Shown here: positions 1 through 5,498 of the stretch, piece by piece
How the letters are laid out: every line of letters starts with the position of its first letter
Numbering within the stretch: position 1 is the first letter of the stretch
NCBI GenBank assembly: GCA_018335585.1
Contig: JAGXRZ010000046.1
Coordinates: 11,832-75,831 of the forward strand
Length of the DNA stretch: 64,000 bases
From: Selenomonadales bacterium
GTDB taxonomy: Bacteria > Bacillota > UBA994
Direction of reading: 5' to 3'
Position numbers and translations under genes: made by a program
The notes under the pieces: model-generated
The model's database searches: none
Told to the model about the DNA's origin: nothing
Seen by the model: only the letters and a program-made list of their open reading frames with translations

Positions 1-267
1 AAAAAGGCGGGGCTTGGGCAAGCAACCATCAGAGAAATAGAGATGGGGGAGAAGAGCCCCAACATTATCACGCTAGAGAAAATCTGCACCGCCTTAGAAA
101 TTTCCCTCGCCGAATTCTTCGCTGAGGACGACTGCATCAAAGTAGCGGAGTCGCCTTGTGGCTACGGTGACTATGCCGATCTCCCTAAGGAGGCCGTCGA
201 GCGAGTCGAAGAGCTGATCGCGCTGTATCGGCTGAAATACAAAACGGAGAAAGAAGCGAAGAAATAG
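1..267 (+). CDS. XRE-family HTH transcriptional regulator, 5'-partial (begins before the window)
   Basis: Frame-1 translation from nt 1 reads ...AGLGQATIREIEMGEKSPNIITLEKICTALEISLAEFF, which is the helix-3 region of a Cro/CI-type HTH. The listed ORF 43..267 is its internal Met. Confidence 0.5.
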   Translation, partial: KKAGLGQATIREIEMGEKSPNIITLEKICTALEISLAEFFAEDDCIKVAESPCGYGDYADLPKEAVERVEELIALYRLKYKTEKEAKK

Positions 268-326
268 TGTGTCGTCCCAACCGCGACGCCGCATCCCCCA
301 ACCCTTGAACGACCTTCGCTAATGGC

Positions 327-548
327 CTAGCCGTCTTTACGCACCGTAAAGCTCACGGGCAAAAAAATACTGTCAGAGGAAACCTGAAGGATCTGCCCGA
401 TCGCCTCTGCAAGCTCTCGGGTGGCCGGACGCATCCCGCTTTCGATAAGATAATACCGACTGGCCCCGATATTCAGCTGCTTCGCCATGCCGGTCAAGCT
501 CTCCCCTCTAGCTTCACGTAGTTTCCGAAGCTCCGTCACTTCTTTCAC
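327..548 (-). CDS. XRE-family HTH regulator (Cro-like, 73 aa)
   Basis: MKEVTELRKLREARGESLTGMAKQLNIGASRYYLIESGMRPATRELAEAIGQIL is a canonical HTH_XRE. It is divergent from the S24 repressor gene across an AT-rich 140-nt region. Confidence 0.6.
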   Translation of the reverse strand: MKEVTELRKLREARGESLTGMAKQLNIGASRYYLIESGMRPATRELAEAIGQILQVSSDSIFLPVSFTVRKDG

Positions 549-696
549 GCTACCACCACCTTTACGCCAAGTAAACCATTCACCCTAATTTTACTTTACA
601 TTGCGTCAATGTCAATACCCTTTTTGTTTTTTCGTAAAGAGTATTTTTATGTTTTACGATTCGTGATAGACTTCCACTAATAGGAGGTGCCTGTAA

Positions 697-1574
697 TGGC
701 TCACTCAATCGGTGCCCGGATTAGGGATCTACGACAAGCTAGAGAAAAAACTCAGGACGAGCTGGGAAAGGTGTTGGGAGTCGGGAACAGCACTATTTCC
801 CTTTACGAAAGTGACAGCAGGCGTCCCGACGTCGACACCCTGCTGCGCCTTGCGAAGTTCTTCAGAGTCTCGACAGATTACCTTTTAGGGCGCACGGATT
901 GCCCCACCGAGCCTCCGCCTCTCCCCACCAATGTCAAGGAGTCCTGCGTAGGATATCTTGATGAGAGCACCGCGGCGCGCCCCATTGAACGGAGCATCCA
1001 GCCAGGGGCGTCTCTCGGCGACACTCTGCGACGTGGCGTAGCCGTGCCCATCCTCGGTCGTATTAAGGCCGGCATCCCCCTGATGTCCGAAGCAAACTTT
1101 GAAGGCGAGATAGAAGTGCCCAAGGACATCAAGGCAGACTTTGCCCTGCGCGTCTCGGGAGACTCTATGTCATGGGCGGGGATCGCGGATGGCGACATCG
1201 CCATCCTAAAACAAGTAACCTCCCCTACTCATGGCGCTGTGGTCGCCGCGGTGGAGGAGGACACATGGGAGGCTACCCTCAAGTTCTACGTGAAAGCCAA
1301 CAGCCACGCAGTGCTGAAGGCGGCGAATCCGGAGTATAAAGACATACCGATCACAGACAGGCATAGGATTATCGGCCAGCTGGTGAGCCTTTCAAAGAAC
1401 CCGCCCGTCTTAAACGATTATCTCGCCCATCTCATGTACAAGGGCGTGGCAGATAAGAAGTGGGAGCTGGCGGTAGAGATAGCGCAACAGCACGGGCTGG
1501 ACGGCGAGAAAGTCGCTAACATTATCTCGGCGTTTGGGCAGATTGGTAAGCACGTAAACTACCGTACGCCTTAA
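697..1574 (+). CDS. CI/LexA-like repressor (N-terminal XRE HTH plus S24 peptidase domain) with an atypical ~58-aa C-terminal extension
   Basis: HTH region: ARIRDLRQAREKTQDELGKVLGVGNSTISLYE. S24 region: ILGRIKAGIPLMSEANFEGEI...LRVSGDSMSWAGIADGDIAILKQ...HRIIGQLVSL. RBS AGGAGG lies 8 nt before the ATG at 697. The extension overlaps the 3' end of tnpB on the opposite strand. Confidence 0.65.
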
Positions 1575-2682
1575 GGCGACGGCTTTGCTCTGGCGCGGCA
1601 GACGGCTCCGCCTCCGAGCAGTGCGGCCGGTTTACAGCGGCCCTGCCGCCAATGTTGACGGCAGCGATTACATCCGCGGGGCCAGCGAGCCCGCACGATG
1701 TGCAGACGAATAGGGATTGGGTTTTGCGGTTCTCTTTGCCGCAATGCCCGCAAGCGGGACAGGTGCGGGAGGTGTTACGGGGGTCAACCAAATGCACGGC
1801 AACTCCCCGCAGGCAGGCTTTGTACGTTAGAAAGCTCCGCAGTTGGGCGAAAGCCCACGAATGGAGTGTTGCGCGCTGAGACCGTCGAGCCTTCGTCCGC
1901 GTGCGGATGTGTGTTAGATCTTCCAACGCAATCGCCCGCTTCGTGCATTCGGCCTTCGCAACAATCCGTTTCGAGAGGCAGTGGTTGACGTGTTTGGCAA
2001 ATCGCCGTTCTTGTCCTGACAGTTTGCGGAGTCGGCGGCGACTACCTAGTGTTCCGAGCTTCTGGAGCTTTTTGCGCAGGCGGCGATGTCGGCACCGCAC
2101 GTTCTTGATGGCCTTGCCGGAGTAGATCTCCCCGTCGCTGTCGGCAGCAATGTTGGTGACTCCTAAGTCGACGCCCAGGGCGCTGTCGCGGGGGACCGGG
2201 ATTGGTGTTTCAACCCGGCAGTTAACGAGGAGATACCACTCCCCCTTAACGCGCAGCACGTCGGATTCTCCCTGTCGTTGGGCAAGCAGGGTTCGCTGGT
2301 GTGGGCCACAGACAAATGGGATGGCCTGCCTTCCTTCCAGTGTCCAAATCGACACCCGCGAATCTTCTAGCGCGAAGGAAAGGATGCGATCGTCGTAAGC
2401 TACTGCCCCGTGTGGCCGAAACGAACGCTTCGCCTTTTTGTCTTTTTTGTAGGCGGCGGTGACCTTAGCTATGCAGCGAACAGCGAGTTGAGCGGATAGG
2501 CCGAAGGTGGCCCGCACTTCGCGGTAGGTTAGGCGATGGAGCGCAAACTGCCTAAAGGTTTGCGTGTCCCATGCCACCTGACCAATAAAGTTACAGGCGG
2601 CATTCGCCGTCTCAAGCGTGCGGCGCAGGGCTTCGGCCTGTTCGGGTGTAGGCAAGAGCTTTACTTGAGCGACGAGATTCAT
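1522..2682 (-). CDS. tnpB: IS200/IS605-family TnpB (OrfB), RuvC-like RNA-guided nuclease
   Basis: 386 aa. The N-terminus MNLVAQVKLLPTPEQAEALRRTLETANAACNFIGQVAWD matches OrfB_IS605. It has a C-terminal zinc finger CPACGHCGKENRKTQSLFVCTSCGLAGPADVIAAVNI. Its RBS is embedded in the last codons of the tnpA remnant. Confidence 0.8.
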   Translation of the reverse strand: MNLVAQVKLLPTPEQAEALRRTLETANAACNFIGQVAWDTQTFRQFALHRLTYREVRATFGLSAQLAVRCIAKVTAAYKKDKKAKRSFRPHGAVAYDDRILSFALEDSRVSIWTLEGRQAIPFVCGPHQRTLLAQRQGESDVLRVKGEWYLLVNCRVETPIPVPRDSALGVDLGVTNIAADSDGEIYSGKAIKNVRCRHRRLRKKLQKLGTLGSRRRLRKLSGQERRFAKHVNHCLSKRIVAKAECTKRAIALEDLTHIRTRTKARRSQRATLHSWAFAQLRSFLTYKACLRGVAVHLVDPRNTSRTCPACGHCGKENRKTQSLFVCTSCGLAGPADVIAAVNIGGRAAVNRPHCSEAEPSAAPEQSRRLKAYGSLRAYQSAQTPR

Positions 2683-2870
2683 CTAGCTCCTCCTTTGCTG
2701 CTCGATGTAGCGTTGAATGGTTTCGGACGAGACGTTTCCGGCGCTACCGAGGTAGTACGACCGACTCCACAACTCGGCGCGCAAGATTCGGGAGGTGTAT
2801 CCCTTGAGTTGATTGGCTATTTGTTGTGGGGCAAGCGTTGGCGGGCAATCAATAAACACATGTAGAATGC
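2683..2870 (-). pseudogene. tnpA: IS200-type Y1 transposase TnpA remnant (C-terminal ~60 aa only)
   Basis: Minus-strand translation ...HVFIDCPPTLAPQQIANQLKGYTSRILRAELWSRSYYLGSAGNVSSETIQRYIEQQRRS* matches the TnpA_IS200 C-terminus. There is no HUH N-terminal half and no start codon; an in-frame stop follows further upstream. Confidence 0.6.
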
Positions 2871-3006
2871 ACGGGGCGACGGGGGCCGTTCTACGGCTGT
2901 TCCGCCTTCCCCAATTGCGAATACACGAGGGCCCGCTAACTAAACTAAAGAGTGATGTTTAGGTGCCCCTCGGGGGCGAGGGTGCGAGCAACTGAGGCAC
3001 CTAGCT

Positions 3007-3363
3007 ATGTTGTTTTACGAAAGATATAATGAGTTTGCGAAGGTAGCAATCAAGAGGGGGTGGGTTGCCATGGTTAGGGATTTTCCTCAACTCGATCAGG
3101 ACGTAGTGTTTCCTCCGAGTGAAACGCTGCTTGAGACGCTAGAGCACTTAGGGATGACGCAGCTGGAACTGGCAAGACGAACCGGCACAACGCCTACGCA
3201 CATTAACCTATTGGCTAAGGGCAATGCTCCACTCTCTCCCGAGATGGCAAGAGCATTGGAAAGGGCGACTGGCGTGCCGGCAAGCCTCTGGACAAACCTT
3301 GGGAAGAACTATCAGGAAGCAAGGGAGCGAGGGGTCAGCCTCGTGATAACAACAAAAAGATAA
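3007..3363 (+). CDS. HTH XRE/HigA-like regulator; possible restriction-modification controller (C) protein or solitary antitoxin
   Basis: ...GMTQLELARRTGTTPTHINLLAKGNAPLSPEMARALERATGVPASLWTNLGKNYQ resembles the HigA/VapI HTH. It sits directly 5' of the methyltransferase gene. An alternative start is Met at 3070. Confidence 0.5.
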   Translation: MLFYERYNEFAKVAIKRGWVAMVRDFPQLDQDVVFPPSETLLETLEHLGMTQLELARRTGTTPTHINLLAKGNAPLSPEMARALERATGVPASLWTNLGKNYQEARERGVSLVITTKR

Positions 3364-3525
3364 AGAGGGCTTCAGCAGCCCCCTTGATCCGACCGTATTA
3401 GTACGATCCCCGGTGCAGCGCGAGTATACTCACGCTCTGCGATATATCGTATATAATTGAATTGTATACCAGCTGTCGCGAATGTCAAGGGCGTCGATTT
3501 GTTTTGTGGGAGAGGAGAGACGAAT

Positions 3526-4731
3526 ATGTCCTACCCAACTATTTCGCTGTTTAGCGGGGCCATGGGGTTAGACTTGGGACTTCGGGAAGCGGGCTTGGAC
3601 ATTAGAGTTTCCCAAGATATTGACCCGTGGTGCGTGAAGACGGCGGACGCGAACAATCACAAGAGTATATTAGGAGATATTCGCAAGCTTCTGGGAGACG
3701 ACCCGGAATGCCGCTTTTTGCTGGAGCCAGCTGGGCTTCAGACAGGAGAGGTTTTTGCGGTCGTCGGTGGCCCTCCCTGCCAGCCATTCAGCACAGCAGG
3801 GAACCGCCTAGGCACTAATGACCCCCGCGGCAGCCTGTTCATGGAGTTCATTCAAGCAATCCGGGCAATGCACCCGCGCTTCTTTGTCATGGAAAACGTC
3901 AAAGGGCTTTTGTCCGTTCCACTCAAACATAGGCCTCTGAAAGACAGGAAGGACGAACCTTTAGTGCCCGAAGAGACACCCGGTTCTGCTTTTGAGATCA
4001 TCAGGCAGATGTTTAACGACCTAGGGTACAAAACAGTTTACGGCATTCTTGATGCAGCTCATTACGGCGTGCCGCAGTTCAGAGAGCGCCTAATTATCAT
4101 TGGCTCAAGAGATAACGAGAATATTTTCCTGCCGAAGCCGACCCACTTCCAGATTCATCAGGACCCGGCACACAGATGGACTACGCTTAAGTCCGCAATC
4201 GAAGACCTAGAAAGCTCCCCGGGCCCCTGCGCCCGCTTTTCGGTTGACCGCATTAATCTCCTGCGCATGATCCCGATGGGAGGGAACTGGCGCAACCTGC
4301 CCAACGACTTGATTCCCATTGCCATGGGAGGAGCATTTGAGAGCGCCGGGGGAAAAGTAGGGTTTTATCGCCGATTGGACTATAATCAGCCCTCCCCCAC
4401 ACTTGTAACTAGCCCCGTACAGAAAGCAACAATGCTCTGCCACCCGACGCAAGACCGGCCCTTGTCTGTACGGGAATACGCCCGGATTCAGCAATTCCCC
4501 GACGACTGGCGGATTGAAGGGAACATAGCCGACTGCTATAGACAAATTGGCAACGCAGTCCCCATCGGGCTTGGCAAGGCCATCGGCCAAATGCTTATAG
4601 CCGTGGCAACCAACAGCGCTGAAATCAGAACCCGTCGGCTACGTGGGACATCTGTTCACCAGAGCCTTCACCAAGCCCAACAGATATCGGTTGAGCGGGT
4701 GGCCGGCGGAAAGAGTGGTGCGGCGAAGTGA
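3526..4731 (+). CDS. DNA (cytosine-5)-methyltransferase
   Basis: Motif I: ISLFSGAMGLDLGL. Motif IV: GGPPCQPFSTAG. Motif VI: ENVKGLLS. The RBS GGAGAGGAGAG precedes the ATG at 3526; the longer ORF from 3457 is probably not used. Confidence 0.85.
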   Translation: MSYPTISLFSGAMGLDLGLREAGLDIRVSQDIDPWCVKTADANNHKSILGDIRKLLGDDPECRFLLEPAGLQTGEVFAVVGGPPCQPFSTAGNRLGTNDPRGSLFMEFIQAIRAMHPRFFVMENVKGLLSVPLKHRPLKDRKDEPLVPEETPGSAFEIIRQMFNDLGYKTVYGILDAAHYGVPQFRERLIIIGSRDNENIFLPKPTHFQIHQDPAHRWTTLKSAIEDLESSPGPCARFSVDRINLLRMIPMGGNWRNLPNDLIPIAMGGAFESAGGKVGFYRRLDYNQPSPTLVTSPVQKATMLCHPTQDRPLSVREYARIQQFPDDWRIEGNIADCYRQIGNAVPIGLGKAIGQMLIAVATNSAEIRTRRLRGTSVHQSLHQAQQISVERVAGGKSGAAK

Positions 4732-5498
4732 TTAACGATCTCGAAGCGAAAATCGGAGAGTTGCTGGACGATTTTTACTCACGCCGGATCCAAAAGGTAA
4801 AGACACTCAGGCTAGGGGATGCGCTCAAACGCAAGAACCCGTATCTATACCGTGCTATTGGCGTTCAAAAGGCATCAGAGATCGTTGAGGGGTTGCTGAT
4901 GGCCTATATGTCCAGCAGCGACGAAGGCATATTCGGCGATGCGTTCTTTGAACCGCTTGCAAAGTTTGTATCCGGGGGTACCGTGTCTCCTTCCGAGGGA
5001 GTAGACGTCGCCATTGAAACTGAAACAACGTACAAGGCCATTGCCGTTAAAAGCGGCCCAAGCGTCTTTAACTCCCAAAGCAAGAGGCGTCAGGCCGACG
5101 ACTTCAAAGCCGTAGGTAACCGTCTAAAGAAGCTACAGAAGATGTTCGACCCAATCGTCGGCTACGGCTACGGGAATAAACAGCAAAAAAAGACTAGCAC
5201 CGCAGCGTTTAGAGAATTGGCCGGGCAAGCCTTCTGGGAAGAGATCACCGGCGACCCGGATTTTTACCTCAAAATTGTGCGCCTGATGAAGAACAAGCCC
5301 CAAGAACACCTGCCCACCTATCGCGAAGCTTGGGATGCCGCCGTGAACCGATTTACTCGCGACTTTACCCAAGACTTCTGTGCTGAAGACGGCAGTATCG
5401 ATTGGGAGAAGCTCGTCCAATACAATAGCGGTAAACAAACGCTCCTTTTCACGCCGATCAAGAGCGTCGGGGCAAACCCTAAACAGCGAGGTGATTAG
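4728..5498 (+). CDS. Putative type II restriction endonuclease, cognate to the methyltransferase
   Basis: The start overlaps the methyltransferase stop (ATGA coupling). A candidate PD-(D/E)xK motif reads ...EGVDVAIETETTYKAIAVKSGP. No other recognisable family. Confidence 0.4.
   Translation: MINDLEAKIGELLDDFYSRRIQKVKTLRLGDALKRKNPYLYRAIGVQKASEIVEGLLMAYMSSSDEGIFGDAFFEPLAKFVSGGTVSPSEGVDVAIETETTYKAIAVKSGPSVFNSQSKRRQADDFKAVGNRLKKLQKMFDPIVGYGYGNKQQKKTSTAAFRELAGQAFWEEITGDPDFYLKIVRLMKNKPQEHLPTYREAWDAAVNRFTRDFTQDFCAEDGSIDWEKLVQYNSGKQTLLFTPIKSVGANPKQRGD

What the first reader, a model, noticed from the sequence alone, without database searches (positions are those of the whole stretch)
1400..3000. IS605-family element with intact TnpB but decayed TnpA, inserted into the 3' end of a CI-like repressor gene; omega-RNA candidate region
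tnpB is full length, with an intact zinc finger and RuvC region. tnpA survives only as a C-terminal ~60-codon remnant that still supplies the tnpB RBS. This is the typical state of domesticated or autonomous TnpB loci.

The TnpB guide RNA (omega RNA) is expected to span the tnpB 3' end and the adjacent right end, roughly 1400-1650 on the minus strand. On the opposite strand the S24 repressor ORF continues ~58 codons beyond the end of its peptidase domain. The insertion therefore appears to have replaced the repressor's native C-terminus and stop codon with IS-derived sequence.
Basis: partly seen in the sequence, partly recalled or inferred. Interest (0 to 1): 0.55.

Follow-up and report, generated by a model that had tools for sequence, protein, structure and literature searches.

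The report
Stranded IS605 remnant beside repressor gene
This is an ordinary IS605-family insertion sequence that has lost its left end and its transposase but keeps an intact TnpB nuclease gene and guide-RNA scaffold; it landed two codons before the stop of a prophage-type repressor gene and changed only that gene's last few residues, not its 58-residue tail.

Summary

The interpretation needs three corrections.

1. The repressor's roughly 58-residue tail is native. It is conserved in 17 homologues, and homologues in 10 fetched IS-free loci carry it. The IS changed only the last residue and added four (...KHVK* became ...KHVNYRTP*).
2. The IS right end is at 1554, not about 1400. DNA homology to independent copies stops exactly there. 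The omega-RNA scaffold is 1554-1691 (-). It has seven covarying helices and a covarying pseudoknot. The guide is the repressor antisense sequence 1553-1538.
3. The left end and the first ~62 tnpA codons are missing. About 100 bp of unassignable sequence (2865-2964) sits in their place, so the element cannot move.

One substitution at 1572 turns the canonical tnpB stop (TAG) into AAG, which extends TnpB by 16 codons into the flank. On the other strand the same substitution creates the repressor's TAA stop.

IS-free sibling elements carry a family TAM (TTCAC) next to an exact match to the guide. That is the known target logic of TnpB homing. Whether TnpB is expressed here is untested.

This is a new member of a known kind and of low interest.

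The parts
1554..2864 (-). IS605-family remnant: right end, tnpB and the 3' part of tnpA. The left end and the 5' part of tnpA are missing.
   Evidence: DNA homology to independent copies (L086, L087, L108, L101, L098) stops exactly at 1554. Homology to the near-identical copies L165 and L166 begins at about 2862-2864. L166 is a whole-unit contig of 1672 bp that runs from TCAT|AGGTATCC... to ...GTCGTTTAC.
1522..2682 (-). tnpB ORF as it stands (386 aa). The canonical 370-aa protein corresponds to 1573-2682. Codons 371-386 are read-through across the right end into the flank.
   Evidence: Pfam OrfB_IS605 and Cas12f1-like_TNB. Most of the 120 listed homologues are 370 aa, and those whose C-termini were inspected end ...APEQSRRL*. 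D172, E254, D337 and two CxxC pairs are present.
1572..1572 (.). Single substitution that swaps a stop codon between two convergent genes. On the minus strand TAG becomes AAG, so tnpB loses its stop. On the plus strand AAA becomes TAA, so the repressor gains its stop at 1572-1574.
   Evidence: L165 and L166 have CTT-TAG where the window has CTT-AAG. With the canonical base the repressor ORF would be 323 aa instead of 295.
1554..1691 (-). Omega-RNA scaffold. Helices: 1691-1688/1683-1680; 1664-1657/1650-1643; 1642-1638/1629-1625; 1620-1614/1593-1586; 1612-1607/1602-1597; terminal hairpin 1583-1578/1566-1561. Pseudoknot: 1635-1630 with 1559-1554.
   Evidence: RNAalifold on 29 relatives gives 36 pairs, 25 of them with compensatory changes. 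96.5% of cells are paired, against 31-45% when the partners are slid, and 0 of 500 shuffles reach the observed values. The pseudoknot is 93.7% paired, against 19-53% when slid. The covariance model R1 hits only here in the window, which is expected because the window sequence was in the seed.
1538..1553 (-). Predicted omega-RNA guide, GTGCTTACCAATCTGC. It is flanking DNA and is antisense to repressor codons Q-I-G-K-H.
   Evidence: It lies immediately 3' of the right-end tip. It is unique in the window. TCAY followed by this 16-mer occurs exactly in the IS-free alleles L001-L003 and in no other fetched locus.
2683..2859 (-). tnpA remnant of 58 codons. The HUH motif and the N-terminal ~62 residues are absent, and there is also a 10-codon internal deletion.
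   Evidence: Matches Y1_Tnp profile positions 55-121 only. Full-length relatives are about 133 aa with HLHLF where the window has ILHVF at the breakpoint. L165 shares the 30-nt internal deletion.
2865..2964 (.). About 100 bp of unassigned sequence where the left end and the 5' part of tnpA should be.
   Evidence: No significant similarity to the left end of L165 or L166. No match in any fetched locus or elsewhere in the window, and none in IMG/VR for a 23-mer. The family's left-end motif GCGCGGAAACC...GGAGGAAGCGC is absent.
687..1574 (+). HTH_3 + Peptidase_S24 repressor gene (295 aa). Residues 1-289 are native. V290-P295 and the stop codon are encoded by the IS right end.
   Evidence: Pfam, alignment A1, and DNA comparison with the IS-free alleles.
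2965..3043 (+). Native sequence that directly follows the repressor stop codon in IS-free alleles. It starts with the GC-rich hairpin GCCCCTCGGGGGC.
   Evidence: Window 2965-3043 aligns to L002 4775-4852, which is the first base after the stop codon of that allele.

Best explanation
An IS200/IS605-family element (tnpA-tnpB co-directional, about 1.67 kb when complete) inserted canonically. On its top strand it went in 3' of a TTCAC motif, between the His and Val codons two codons before the stop of the repressor gene of an integrated prophage- or ICE-like element. It later lost its left end and the first ~62 tnpA codons. It now has neither a working transposase nor a left end and cannot move.

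The TnpB gene, its catalytic residues and the ~138-nt omega-RNA scaffold are intact in sequence. The scaffold is encoded almost wholly inside the 3' end of tnpB.

If the locus is transcribed, the RNA would carry the 16-20 nt of repressor antisense sequence that follow the right end as its guide. The TnpB-RNA complex would then cut IS-free copies of the same repressor allele, which carry TTCAC directly beside an exact guide match. That is the known homing and retention role of TnpB.

The repressor survives nearly unchanged (K to N, plus YRTP). One A-to-T change in the loop of the terminal omega-RNA hairpin created an early TAA for the repressor and removed the tnpB stop.

Shown: the element boundaries, the native tail, the RNA structure, and the target site in sibling alleles. 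Inferred: transcription, nuclease activity, and any selection on the substitution.
For: - Native tail: 17 homologues down to 45% identity share the tail and end ...KHVK* or similar. The IS-free loci L001-L003 are 94% identical in DNA up to window 1561, and homology resumes at 2965. L167-L173 are also IS-free.
- Right end at 1554: five independent copies stop aligning there. The whole-unit contig L166 ends ...GTCGTTTAC. The family-wide right-end tip pattern agrees.
- TAM is TCAY, read from the left-end flanks of about 25 relatives. The empty site reads ...CTTACTTCAC|GTGCTTACC... on the IS strand. TCAY plus the guide occurs exactly in L001-L003.
- Omega RNA.
- TnpB is intact apart from the lost stop.
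- tnpA and the left end are lost.
- Mechanism from the literature: the guide is taken from the right-end flank, the TAM abuts the left end, the donor joint is the target, and excision needs both ends (Meers et al., bioRxiv 10.1101/2023.03.14.532601; Karvelis et al., PMC8612924, listed).
Against: - No sigma-70-like promoter was found on the minus strand between tnpB and 3460, and the promoter-like sequence seen in the left end of L165 is gone. Expression is therefore doubtful.
- The 16-residue C-terminal extension may or may not be tolerated.
- The IS is 100% identical between the two contigs that carry this insertion and about 99.6% identical to L165 outside one patch. The intact ORF could simply reflect a young insertion rather than selection.
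- The origin of 2865-2964 is unexplained.
- The ten bases expected between the hairpin and the left end (TTACTTCAC...) are not recognisable.
Confidence: 0.6

Rival explanations
1. Silent relic. This has the same anatomy, but the TnpB/omega-RNA module is not expressed or not active. The ORF is open only because the insertion and the truncation are recent, and the locus is simply decaying.
For: The left-end promoter region is lost and no promoter-like site lies upstream of tnpB. The stop codon is already lost. tnpA is already broken in two ways. There is no divergence within the IS between the window and L004 that could show purifying selection. Other copies also show stop loss (L087, P0127, P0131).
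Against: All catalytic and zinc-finger residues are intact. All omega-RNA helices remain paired in this copy, and the change at 1600 keeps a G-U pair. Read-through from neighbouring transcription cannot be excluded.
Confidence: 0.3
2. One reading: the IS extends to about 1400 and replaced the repressor's native C-terminus with ~58 IS-derived codons.
For: Only the overlap of the two convergent ORFs (1522-1574) and the end of the Pfam S24 match at residue 233.
Against: The tail is conserved in IS-free homologues. DNA of IS-free alleles is collinear up to 1561. IS copies share nothing below 1554.
Confidence: 0.02
3. Domesticated TnpB: the immobilised nuclease or guide RNA has been co-opted by the prophage, for example as an RNA-guided regulator (as for TldR) or as a weapon against competing elements, and is kept for that reason.
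For: The module is fixed in place, its guide matches a conserved immunity gene of sibling elements, and those siblings have a TAM plus an exact target. Domestication of TnpB is documented (Wiegand et al., PMC10705468, listed; from my own knowledge of that work, not read here, the TldR proteins it describes are nuclease-dead).
Against: The RuvC residues are intact, so it is not TldR-like. This arrangement was seen only in two near-identical contigs. Every other close relative sits in unrelated flanks, as a mobile IS would. No dedicated promoter was found.
Confidence: 0.06

Closest known systems
IS200/IS605-family elements with co-directional tnpA-tnpB (IS608/ISDra2-type organisation) and their TnpB-omega-RNA (reRNA) system
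   Same: - A Y1 (HUH) TnpA followed directly by TnpB.
- Insertion 3' of a short motif without a target duplication.
- A subterminal hairpin at the right end.
- A guide-RNA scaffold that overlaps the tnpB 3' end and stops at the right-end boundary, with the guide taken from the flank.
- The TAM is the motif that flanks the left end.
   Different: - The TAM here is TCAY, inferred from flanks and not measured.
- The canonical stop codon sits in the loop of the last omega-RNA hairpin, only 16 nt from the element tip.
- This copy lacks the left end and the catalytic half of TnpA.
- Its TnpB reads through into the flank.
tnpB-only non-autonomous IS605-family elements (IS1341-like; the majority class described by Meers et al. 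2023)
   Same: TnpB plus omega RNA without a working TnpA. The closest relatives in reference genomes (Chloroflexales, 65-73% identity) are of this type, with intact left and right ends.
   Different: Those elements keep both ends and can be mobilised in trans. This one has no recognisable left end, so it cannot be.
TldR (nuclease-dead, domesticated TnpB transcription factors)
   Same: An immobilised TnpB-family gene with a fixed guide.
   Different: The D-E-D catalytic triad is intact here, and there is no conserved host-gene association.

Membership tests
IS200/IS605 family insertion sequence | Y1 HUH transposase TnpA | tested here: inconclusive
   Only the C-terminal half is present (Y1_Tnp profile 55-121, E = 6e-12). 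The HUH motif and N-terminus are missing and there is a 10-codon internal deletion. The homology shows family origin, but the gene is non-functional. Sibling copy L166 has a 133-aa tnpA.
IS200/IS605 family insertion sequence | Conserved right end with a subterminal hairpin and a defined tip | tested here: met
   The hairpin GCCGTCGCC-TTAA-GGCGTACGG followed by TAGTTTAC matches the family pattern ...GCC-stem-CTTTAG-stem-GGTNGYTKAC across more than 100 loci, with covariation.
IS200/IS605 family insertion sequence | Conserved left end with a subterminal hairpin | tested here: not met
   The family's left-end motif GCGCGGAAACC...GGAGGAAGCGC is absent. Window 2865-2975, which includes the unassigned 2865-2964 stretch, has no significant similarity to the L165/L166 left end. 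This copy is therefore a truncated remnant.
IS200/IS605 family insertion sequence | Insertion 3' of a specific 4-5 nt motif with no target-site duplication | tested here: met
   The empty allele reads ...TTCAC|GTGCTTACC... on the IS strand, and the right-end junction is at exactly that point. TCAY flanks the left end in about 25 relatives. The left junction of this copy cannot be checked because it has been rearranged.
TnpB RNA-guided nuclease (OMEGA class) | Split RuvC with a D-E-D triad and a CxxC...CxxC zinc finger | tested here: met
   Pfam OrfB_IS605 and Cas12f1-like_TNB. D172, E254, D337 and C308/C311 and C327/C330 align with the corresponding motifs of Cas12f chain 9nzq_A.
TnpB RNA-guided nuclease (OMEGA class) | Cognate omega RNA that overlaps the tnpB 3' end and ends at the right-end boundary | tested here: met
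   Structure 1554-1691 with 25 of 36 pairs compensated and a covarying pseudoknot. No Rfam family matched, so the evidence is the covariation found here and not a curated model.
TnpB RNA-guided nuclease (OMEGA class) | RNA-guided, TAM-dependent DNA cleavage | not testable with these tools
   This needs biochemistry or an interference assay. Only the predicted target (TTCAC plus the guide in L001-L003) could be shown.
LexA/CI-type S24 autocleaving repressor | N-terminal HTH plus C-terminal Peptidase_S24 domain | tested here: met
   HTH_3 (residues 12-66) and Peptidase_S24 (121-233, E = 3.5e-23). GDSM is invariant in A1. Which residues are catalytic and whether autocleavage occurs were not tested.

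The most novel reading that the evidence does not exclude
The stranded TnpB-omega-RNA module works as an allele-specific weapon of this prophage or ICE. Because its guide is frozen on the 3' end of the immunity repressor gene, it would cut incoming or co-resident sibling elements that lack the IS (TTCAC plus an exact 16-38 nt match in L001-L003). The A-to-T change at 1572 would then have been selected because it gives the repressor a near-native C-terminus while keeping the omega-RNA hairpin intact.
Probability: 0.1. Interest if true: 0.45.

Novelty: new member of a known kind. Interest (0 to 1): 0.2.

Why it matters
It matters mainly as a correction. The locus is a routine IS605-family remnant, and the repressor is not C-terminally replaced.

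Three small points are of some use:
- A clean worked example with an empty site, a TAM (TCAY), a guide and a covariation-supported omega-RNA with pseudoknot, for a TnpB clade (Chloroflexota/Bacillota, metagenomic) that has no Rfam model.
- A case where one nucleotide in a palindromic CCTTAAGG moves a stop codon from one convergent gene to the other.
- A conserved, unannotated ~58-residue C-terminal extension in a clade of HTH-S24 repressors.

Tried and rejected
- Rfam scan of 1-5000 at E <= 1 found nothing, so the RNA had to be defined de novo.
- A search for a second IS copy in the window found none (blastn and tblastn; covariance model).
- My first reading of the TAM as TTTAC, taken from Chloroflexales left-end flanks, was wrong. 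Aligning about 25 left ends on their hairpin motif shows the boundary lies further out and the flank is TCAY.
- I tried to assign 2865-2964 in four ways. All were negative:
  - local alignment to the L165/L166 left end with shuffles (score 20 against a shuffled mean of 19.5);
  - blastn-short against all 173 loci and the window;
  - an exact 23-mer in IMG/VR;
  - comparison with the sequence downstream of the repressor in seven further IS-free loci.
- I considered that GGGGC-ACCTAAACATCAC is a diverged copy of the expected GGGGC-TTACTTCAC flank. There are too many changes for a 94%-identical lineage, so this is left open.
- The single-sequence fold of 1534-1700 is not significant on energy alone (z = -1.69). 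The support comes from covariation.
- Phage and plasmid collections gave no close annotated relative. The best plasmid TnpB is 51.5% identical, and the phage collection gave no match to this region.
- Selection on this tnpB copy cannot be assessed, because there are no differences from L004 inside the IS.
Full report
**What is in the sequence**

ORF listing and Pfam scans show three genes.
- 687-1574 (+) is a 295-aa protein with HTH_3 (residues 12-66) and Peptidase_S24 (121-233).
- 1522-2682 (-) is a 386-aa TnpB (OrfB_IS605, Cas12f1-like_TNB).
- 2683-2859 (-) is a 58-aa ORF that matches only positions 55-121 of the 121-position Y1_Tnp profile.

A GGAGG lies 6 nt upstream of the tnpB ATG, inside the end of the tnpA remnant. 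There is no second copy of the element in the 64-kb window. Rfam has nothing in 1-5000 even at E <= 1.

**The repressor tail is native**

A search with the repressor found 205 relatives. The close ones are 250-260 aa yet cover 96-97% of the 295-aa query.

In an alignment of 17 of them (A1) the length difference lies in the HTH-S24 linker. The ~58 residues after the S24 domain are conserved down to 45% identity. The homologues come from Tindallia, Heliophilum, Dehalobacterium, Formimonas and metagenome assemblies, and K252, D256, W259 and G270 are invariant. Homologues end ...QIGKHVK* or similar. The window ends ...QIGKHVNYRTP*.

The contigs that encode P0002 and P0005 (L001-L003) are the same kind of integrated element without any IS. 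Their gene order is repressor, two small genes, an HTH gene, a DNA methylase, an EcoO109I-type restriction enzyme and an integrase.

Their DNA is 94% identical to the window up to 1561, and homology resumes at window 2965. That position corresponds to the first base after their stop codon. Seven more IS-free loci (L167-L173) carry the tail as well.

Only the final Lys and the stop were replaced.

**Where the IS ends**

Canonical relatives of the TnpB are 370 aa and end ...APEQSRRL*.

Scans of genome and metagenome collections gave 160 related loci. BLASTN of the window's minus strand against them shows that five independent copies (L086, L087, L108, L101, L098) stop aligning exactly at window 1554.

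Two Logan contigs carry nearly the same IS.
- L165 has a TnpB 99% identical to the window's.
- L166 has a TnpB 88% identical. It is a 1672-bp contig that begins TCAT|AGGTATCCGCGCGCGG... and ends ...GCGCACGGTCGTTTAC, so it is one complete unit.

The right end is therefore ...GGCGTACGGTAGTTTAC| on the minus strand, and its last base pairs with window 1554.

Codon V290 of the repressor (GTA, 1554-1556) is already IS sequence. By coincidence it restores the native Val.

**The insertion site and the TAM**

I aligned about 25 relatives on their left-end hairpin motif (GCGCGGAAACC...GGAGGAAGCGC). The base run just outside the left end is TCAT or TCAC, often with a T before it.

On the IS strand the empty allele reads ...GGGGCTTACTTCAC|GTGCTTACCAATCTG.... 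The right-end junction lies exactly after TTCAC, as expected for an IS200/IS605 insertion 3' of its target motif without a duplication (mechanism as summarised in Meers et al.).

**The left side is broken**

Homology to L165/L166 and to all tnpA-bearing relatives starts at about 2862-2864. That is at the HUH motif: ILHVF in the window, HLHLF in relatives. The first ~62 codons of tnpA and the whole left end are missing. The remnant also has a 30-nt internal deletion that it shares with L165.

Window 2865-2964 matches nothing. It has no similarity to the left end, to any of the 173 loci or the rest of the window, or to IMG/VR.

Excision needs both ends, so the element is stranded.

**The stop-codon swap**

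L165 and L166 read CTT-TAG after codon 370. The window reads CTT-AAG. TnpB therefore runs on for 16 codons, crosses the element tip after codon 376, and stops at 1522-1524 inside repressor antisense sequence.

The same base (window 1572, T on the plus strand) makes the repressor's TAA at 1572-1574. With the canonical base the repressor would be 323 aa.

The site is in the tetraloop of the last omega-RNA hairpin. That loop varies freely among relatives (TTTAG, TTCAG, TTGAG, CTCGG, TTTGG), so the RNA should not be affected.

Other copies have also lost this stop (L087 TAG to TGG; P0127, P0131). The change may therefore be neutral decay. Selection for a short repressor tail is an inference.

**The omega RNA**

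I aligned the last ~138 nt of 29 non-identical relatives (A3). RNAalifold predicts 36 pairs in seven helices, and 25 pairs have compensatory changes.

| Measure | Helices | Pseudoknot |
|---|---|---|
| Cells forming a standard pair | 96.5% | 93.7% |
| Same, with partners slid by 1-3 columns | 31-45% | 19-53% |
| Cells changed on both sides | 207 | 21 |
| Same, in shuffles (mean) | 72 | 6.4 |
| Shuffles reaching the observed paired % and covariation score | 0 of 500 | 0 of 500 |

The pseudoknot is a six-base pairing between the loop of the third hairpin (GUAAAC, 1635-1630) and the element tip (GUUUAC, 1559-1554). It covaries as GUAAGC/GCUUAC, GUCAA/UUGAC and GUCAUA/UAUGAC.

In the window all helices are intact. 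The one difference from L165 inside a stem (1600) keeps a G-U pair.

A covariance model built from A3 hits only 1554-1691 in the window. The window sequence was in the seed, so this mainly shows that nothing similar lies in 1350-1553 or elsewhere.

The scaffold therefore lies almost wholly inside the tnpB ORF. The guide is the flank 1553-1538, GTGCTTACCAATCTGC, which is antisense to repressor codons Q-I-G-K-H and unique in the window.

**Likely function**

The TnpB catalytic residues D172, E254 and D337 and both CxxC pairs are present. The pattern TCAY + guide occurs exactly in the three IS-free sibling alleles and in no other fetched locus. Those alleles are the predicted targets of the TnpB-RNA complex. 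This is the homing and retention logic described for the family (Karvelis et al., PMC8612924; Meers et al., 10.1101/2023.03.14.532601).

In the IS-bearing allele the guide match is preceded by TTTAC (the element tip) and not by TCAY.

Several things argue against activity.
- The promoter-like left-end sequence of L165 is gone.
- The pattern scan finds no sigma-70-like site on the minus strand between tnpB and 3460.
- The repressor transcript would now run antisense into the guide and terminal hairpin, because its native GC-rich hairpin (GCCCCTCGGGGGC, 2965-2977) has been displaced by 1.4 kb. That this hairpin terminates the repressor transcript is an assumption.

The IS is identical in the two contigs that carry this insertion. 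Outside a 100-bp mosaic patch (1738-1837) it differs from L165 at five positions. Its intactness may therefore only reflect youth.

**Verdict**

This is an ordinary, truncated, immobile IS605-family element with a sequence-intact TnpB/omega-RNA module. It sits two codons before the end of a prophage-type repressor gene that is essentially undamaged.

The extent of the IS, the position of the omega RNA and the fate of the repressor tail were wrong.

This is a new member of a known kind and of low interest.

Noticed in passing
window 1398-1553 (repressor residues ~238-289); alignment A1: All HTH_3 + Peptidase_S24 repressors of this clade carry a conserved ~58-residue extension after the S24 domain, with K252, D256, W259 and G270 invariant. 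It has no Pfam match even at E <= 10. The canonical LexA and lambda CI proteins end with the S24 domain (my own knowledge), so this may be an undescribed domain.
   Followed up: partly
window 2865-2964: About 100 bp of sequence of unknown origin replaces the IS left end and the 5' part of tnpA. It contains GTAGAA...TTCTAC (2863-2868 and 2889-2894, plus strand) flanking a G-rich stretch. It has no match in any fetched locus, elsewhere in the window, or in IMG/VR.
   Followed up: yes
window 2965-3060 compared with L002 4775-6073: The window lacks two genes (223 aa and 170 aa) that sit between the repressor and the HTH gene in the IS-free sibling elements. As a result the window ORF 3007-3363 starts in sequence that is upstream-intergenic in the siblings.
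   Followed up: partly
window 1115-1493 compared with L004: 21 of the 23 differences between the window and the near-identical contig L004 cluster in the S24 half of the repressor gene. There are none in the IS or in the 3.7 kb beyond it. This looks like a recombination patch.
   Followed up: no
window 1738-1837 (inside tnpB): 20 of the 25 differences from the sibling IS copy L165 fall in this 100-bp stretch, which suggests mosaic recombination between IS variants.
   Followed up: no
L087 around 3110-3150; proteins P0127, P0131: Other copies of this IS clade have also lost the stop codon in the hairpin loop (for example TAG to TGG), and their TnpB reads through the element tip into unrelated flanks.
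   Followed up: partly
alignment A3 columns 115-121 compared with 147-153 (window 1590-1584 and 1560-1554): The bases just 5' of the terminal right-end hairpin (GCAAAG, GTAAAG, GACAAG) change together with the element tip (GTTTAC, GCTTAC, GTTGAC). This may reflect the DNA guide and cleavage-site pairing used by TnpA rather than RNA structure.
   Followed up: no
L002 1-172: The IS-free sibling element carries a 395-aa gene with RRXRR and HNH domains at the edge of the fetched stretch. It may be IscB-like (my inference from the domain pair).
   Followed up: no
window 3488-3461 (-) and 3385-3363 (-): A near-consensus sigma-70-type promoter (TTGACA-16-TACAAT, 11 of 12) points leftward from inside the start of the methylase ORF. 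A terminator-like hairpin follows it. Its transcript is unknown.
   Followed up: no
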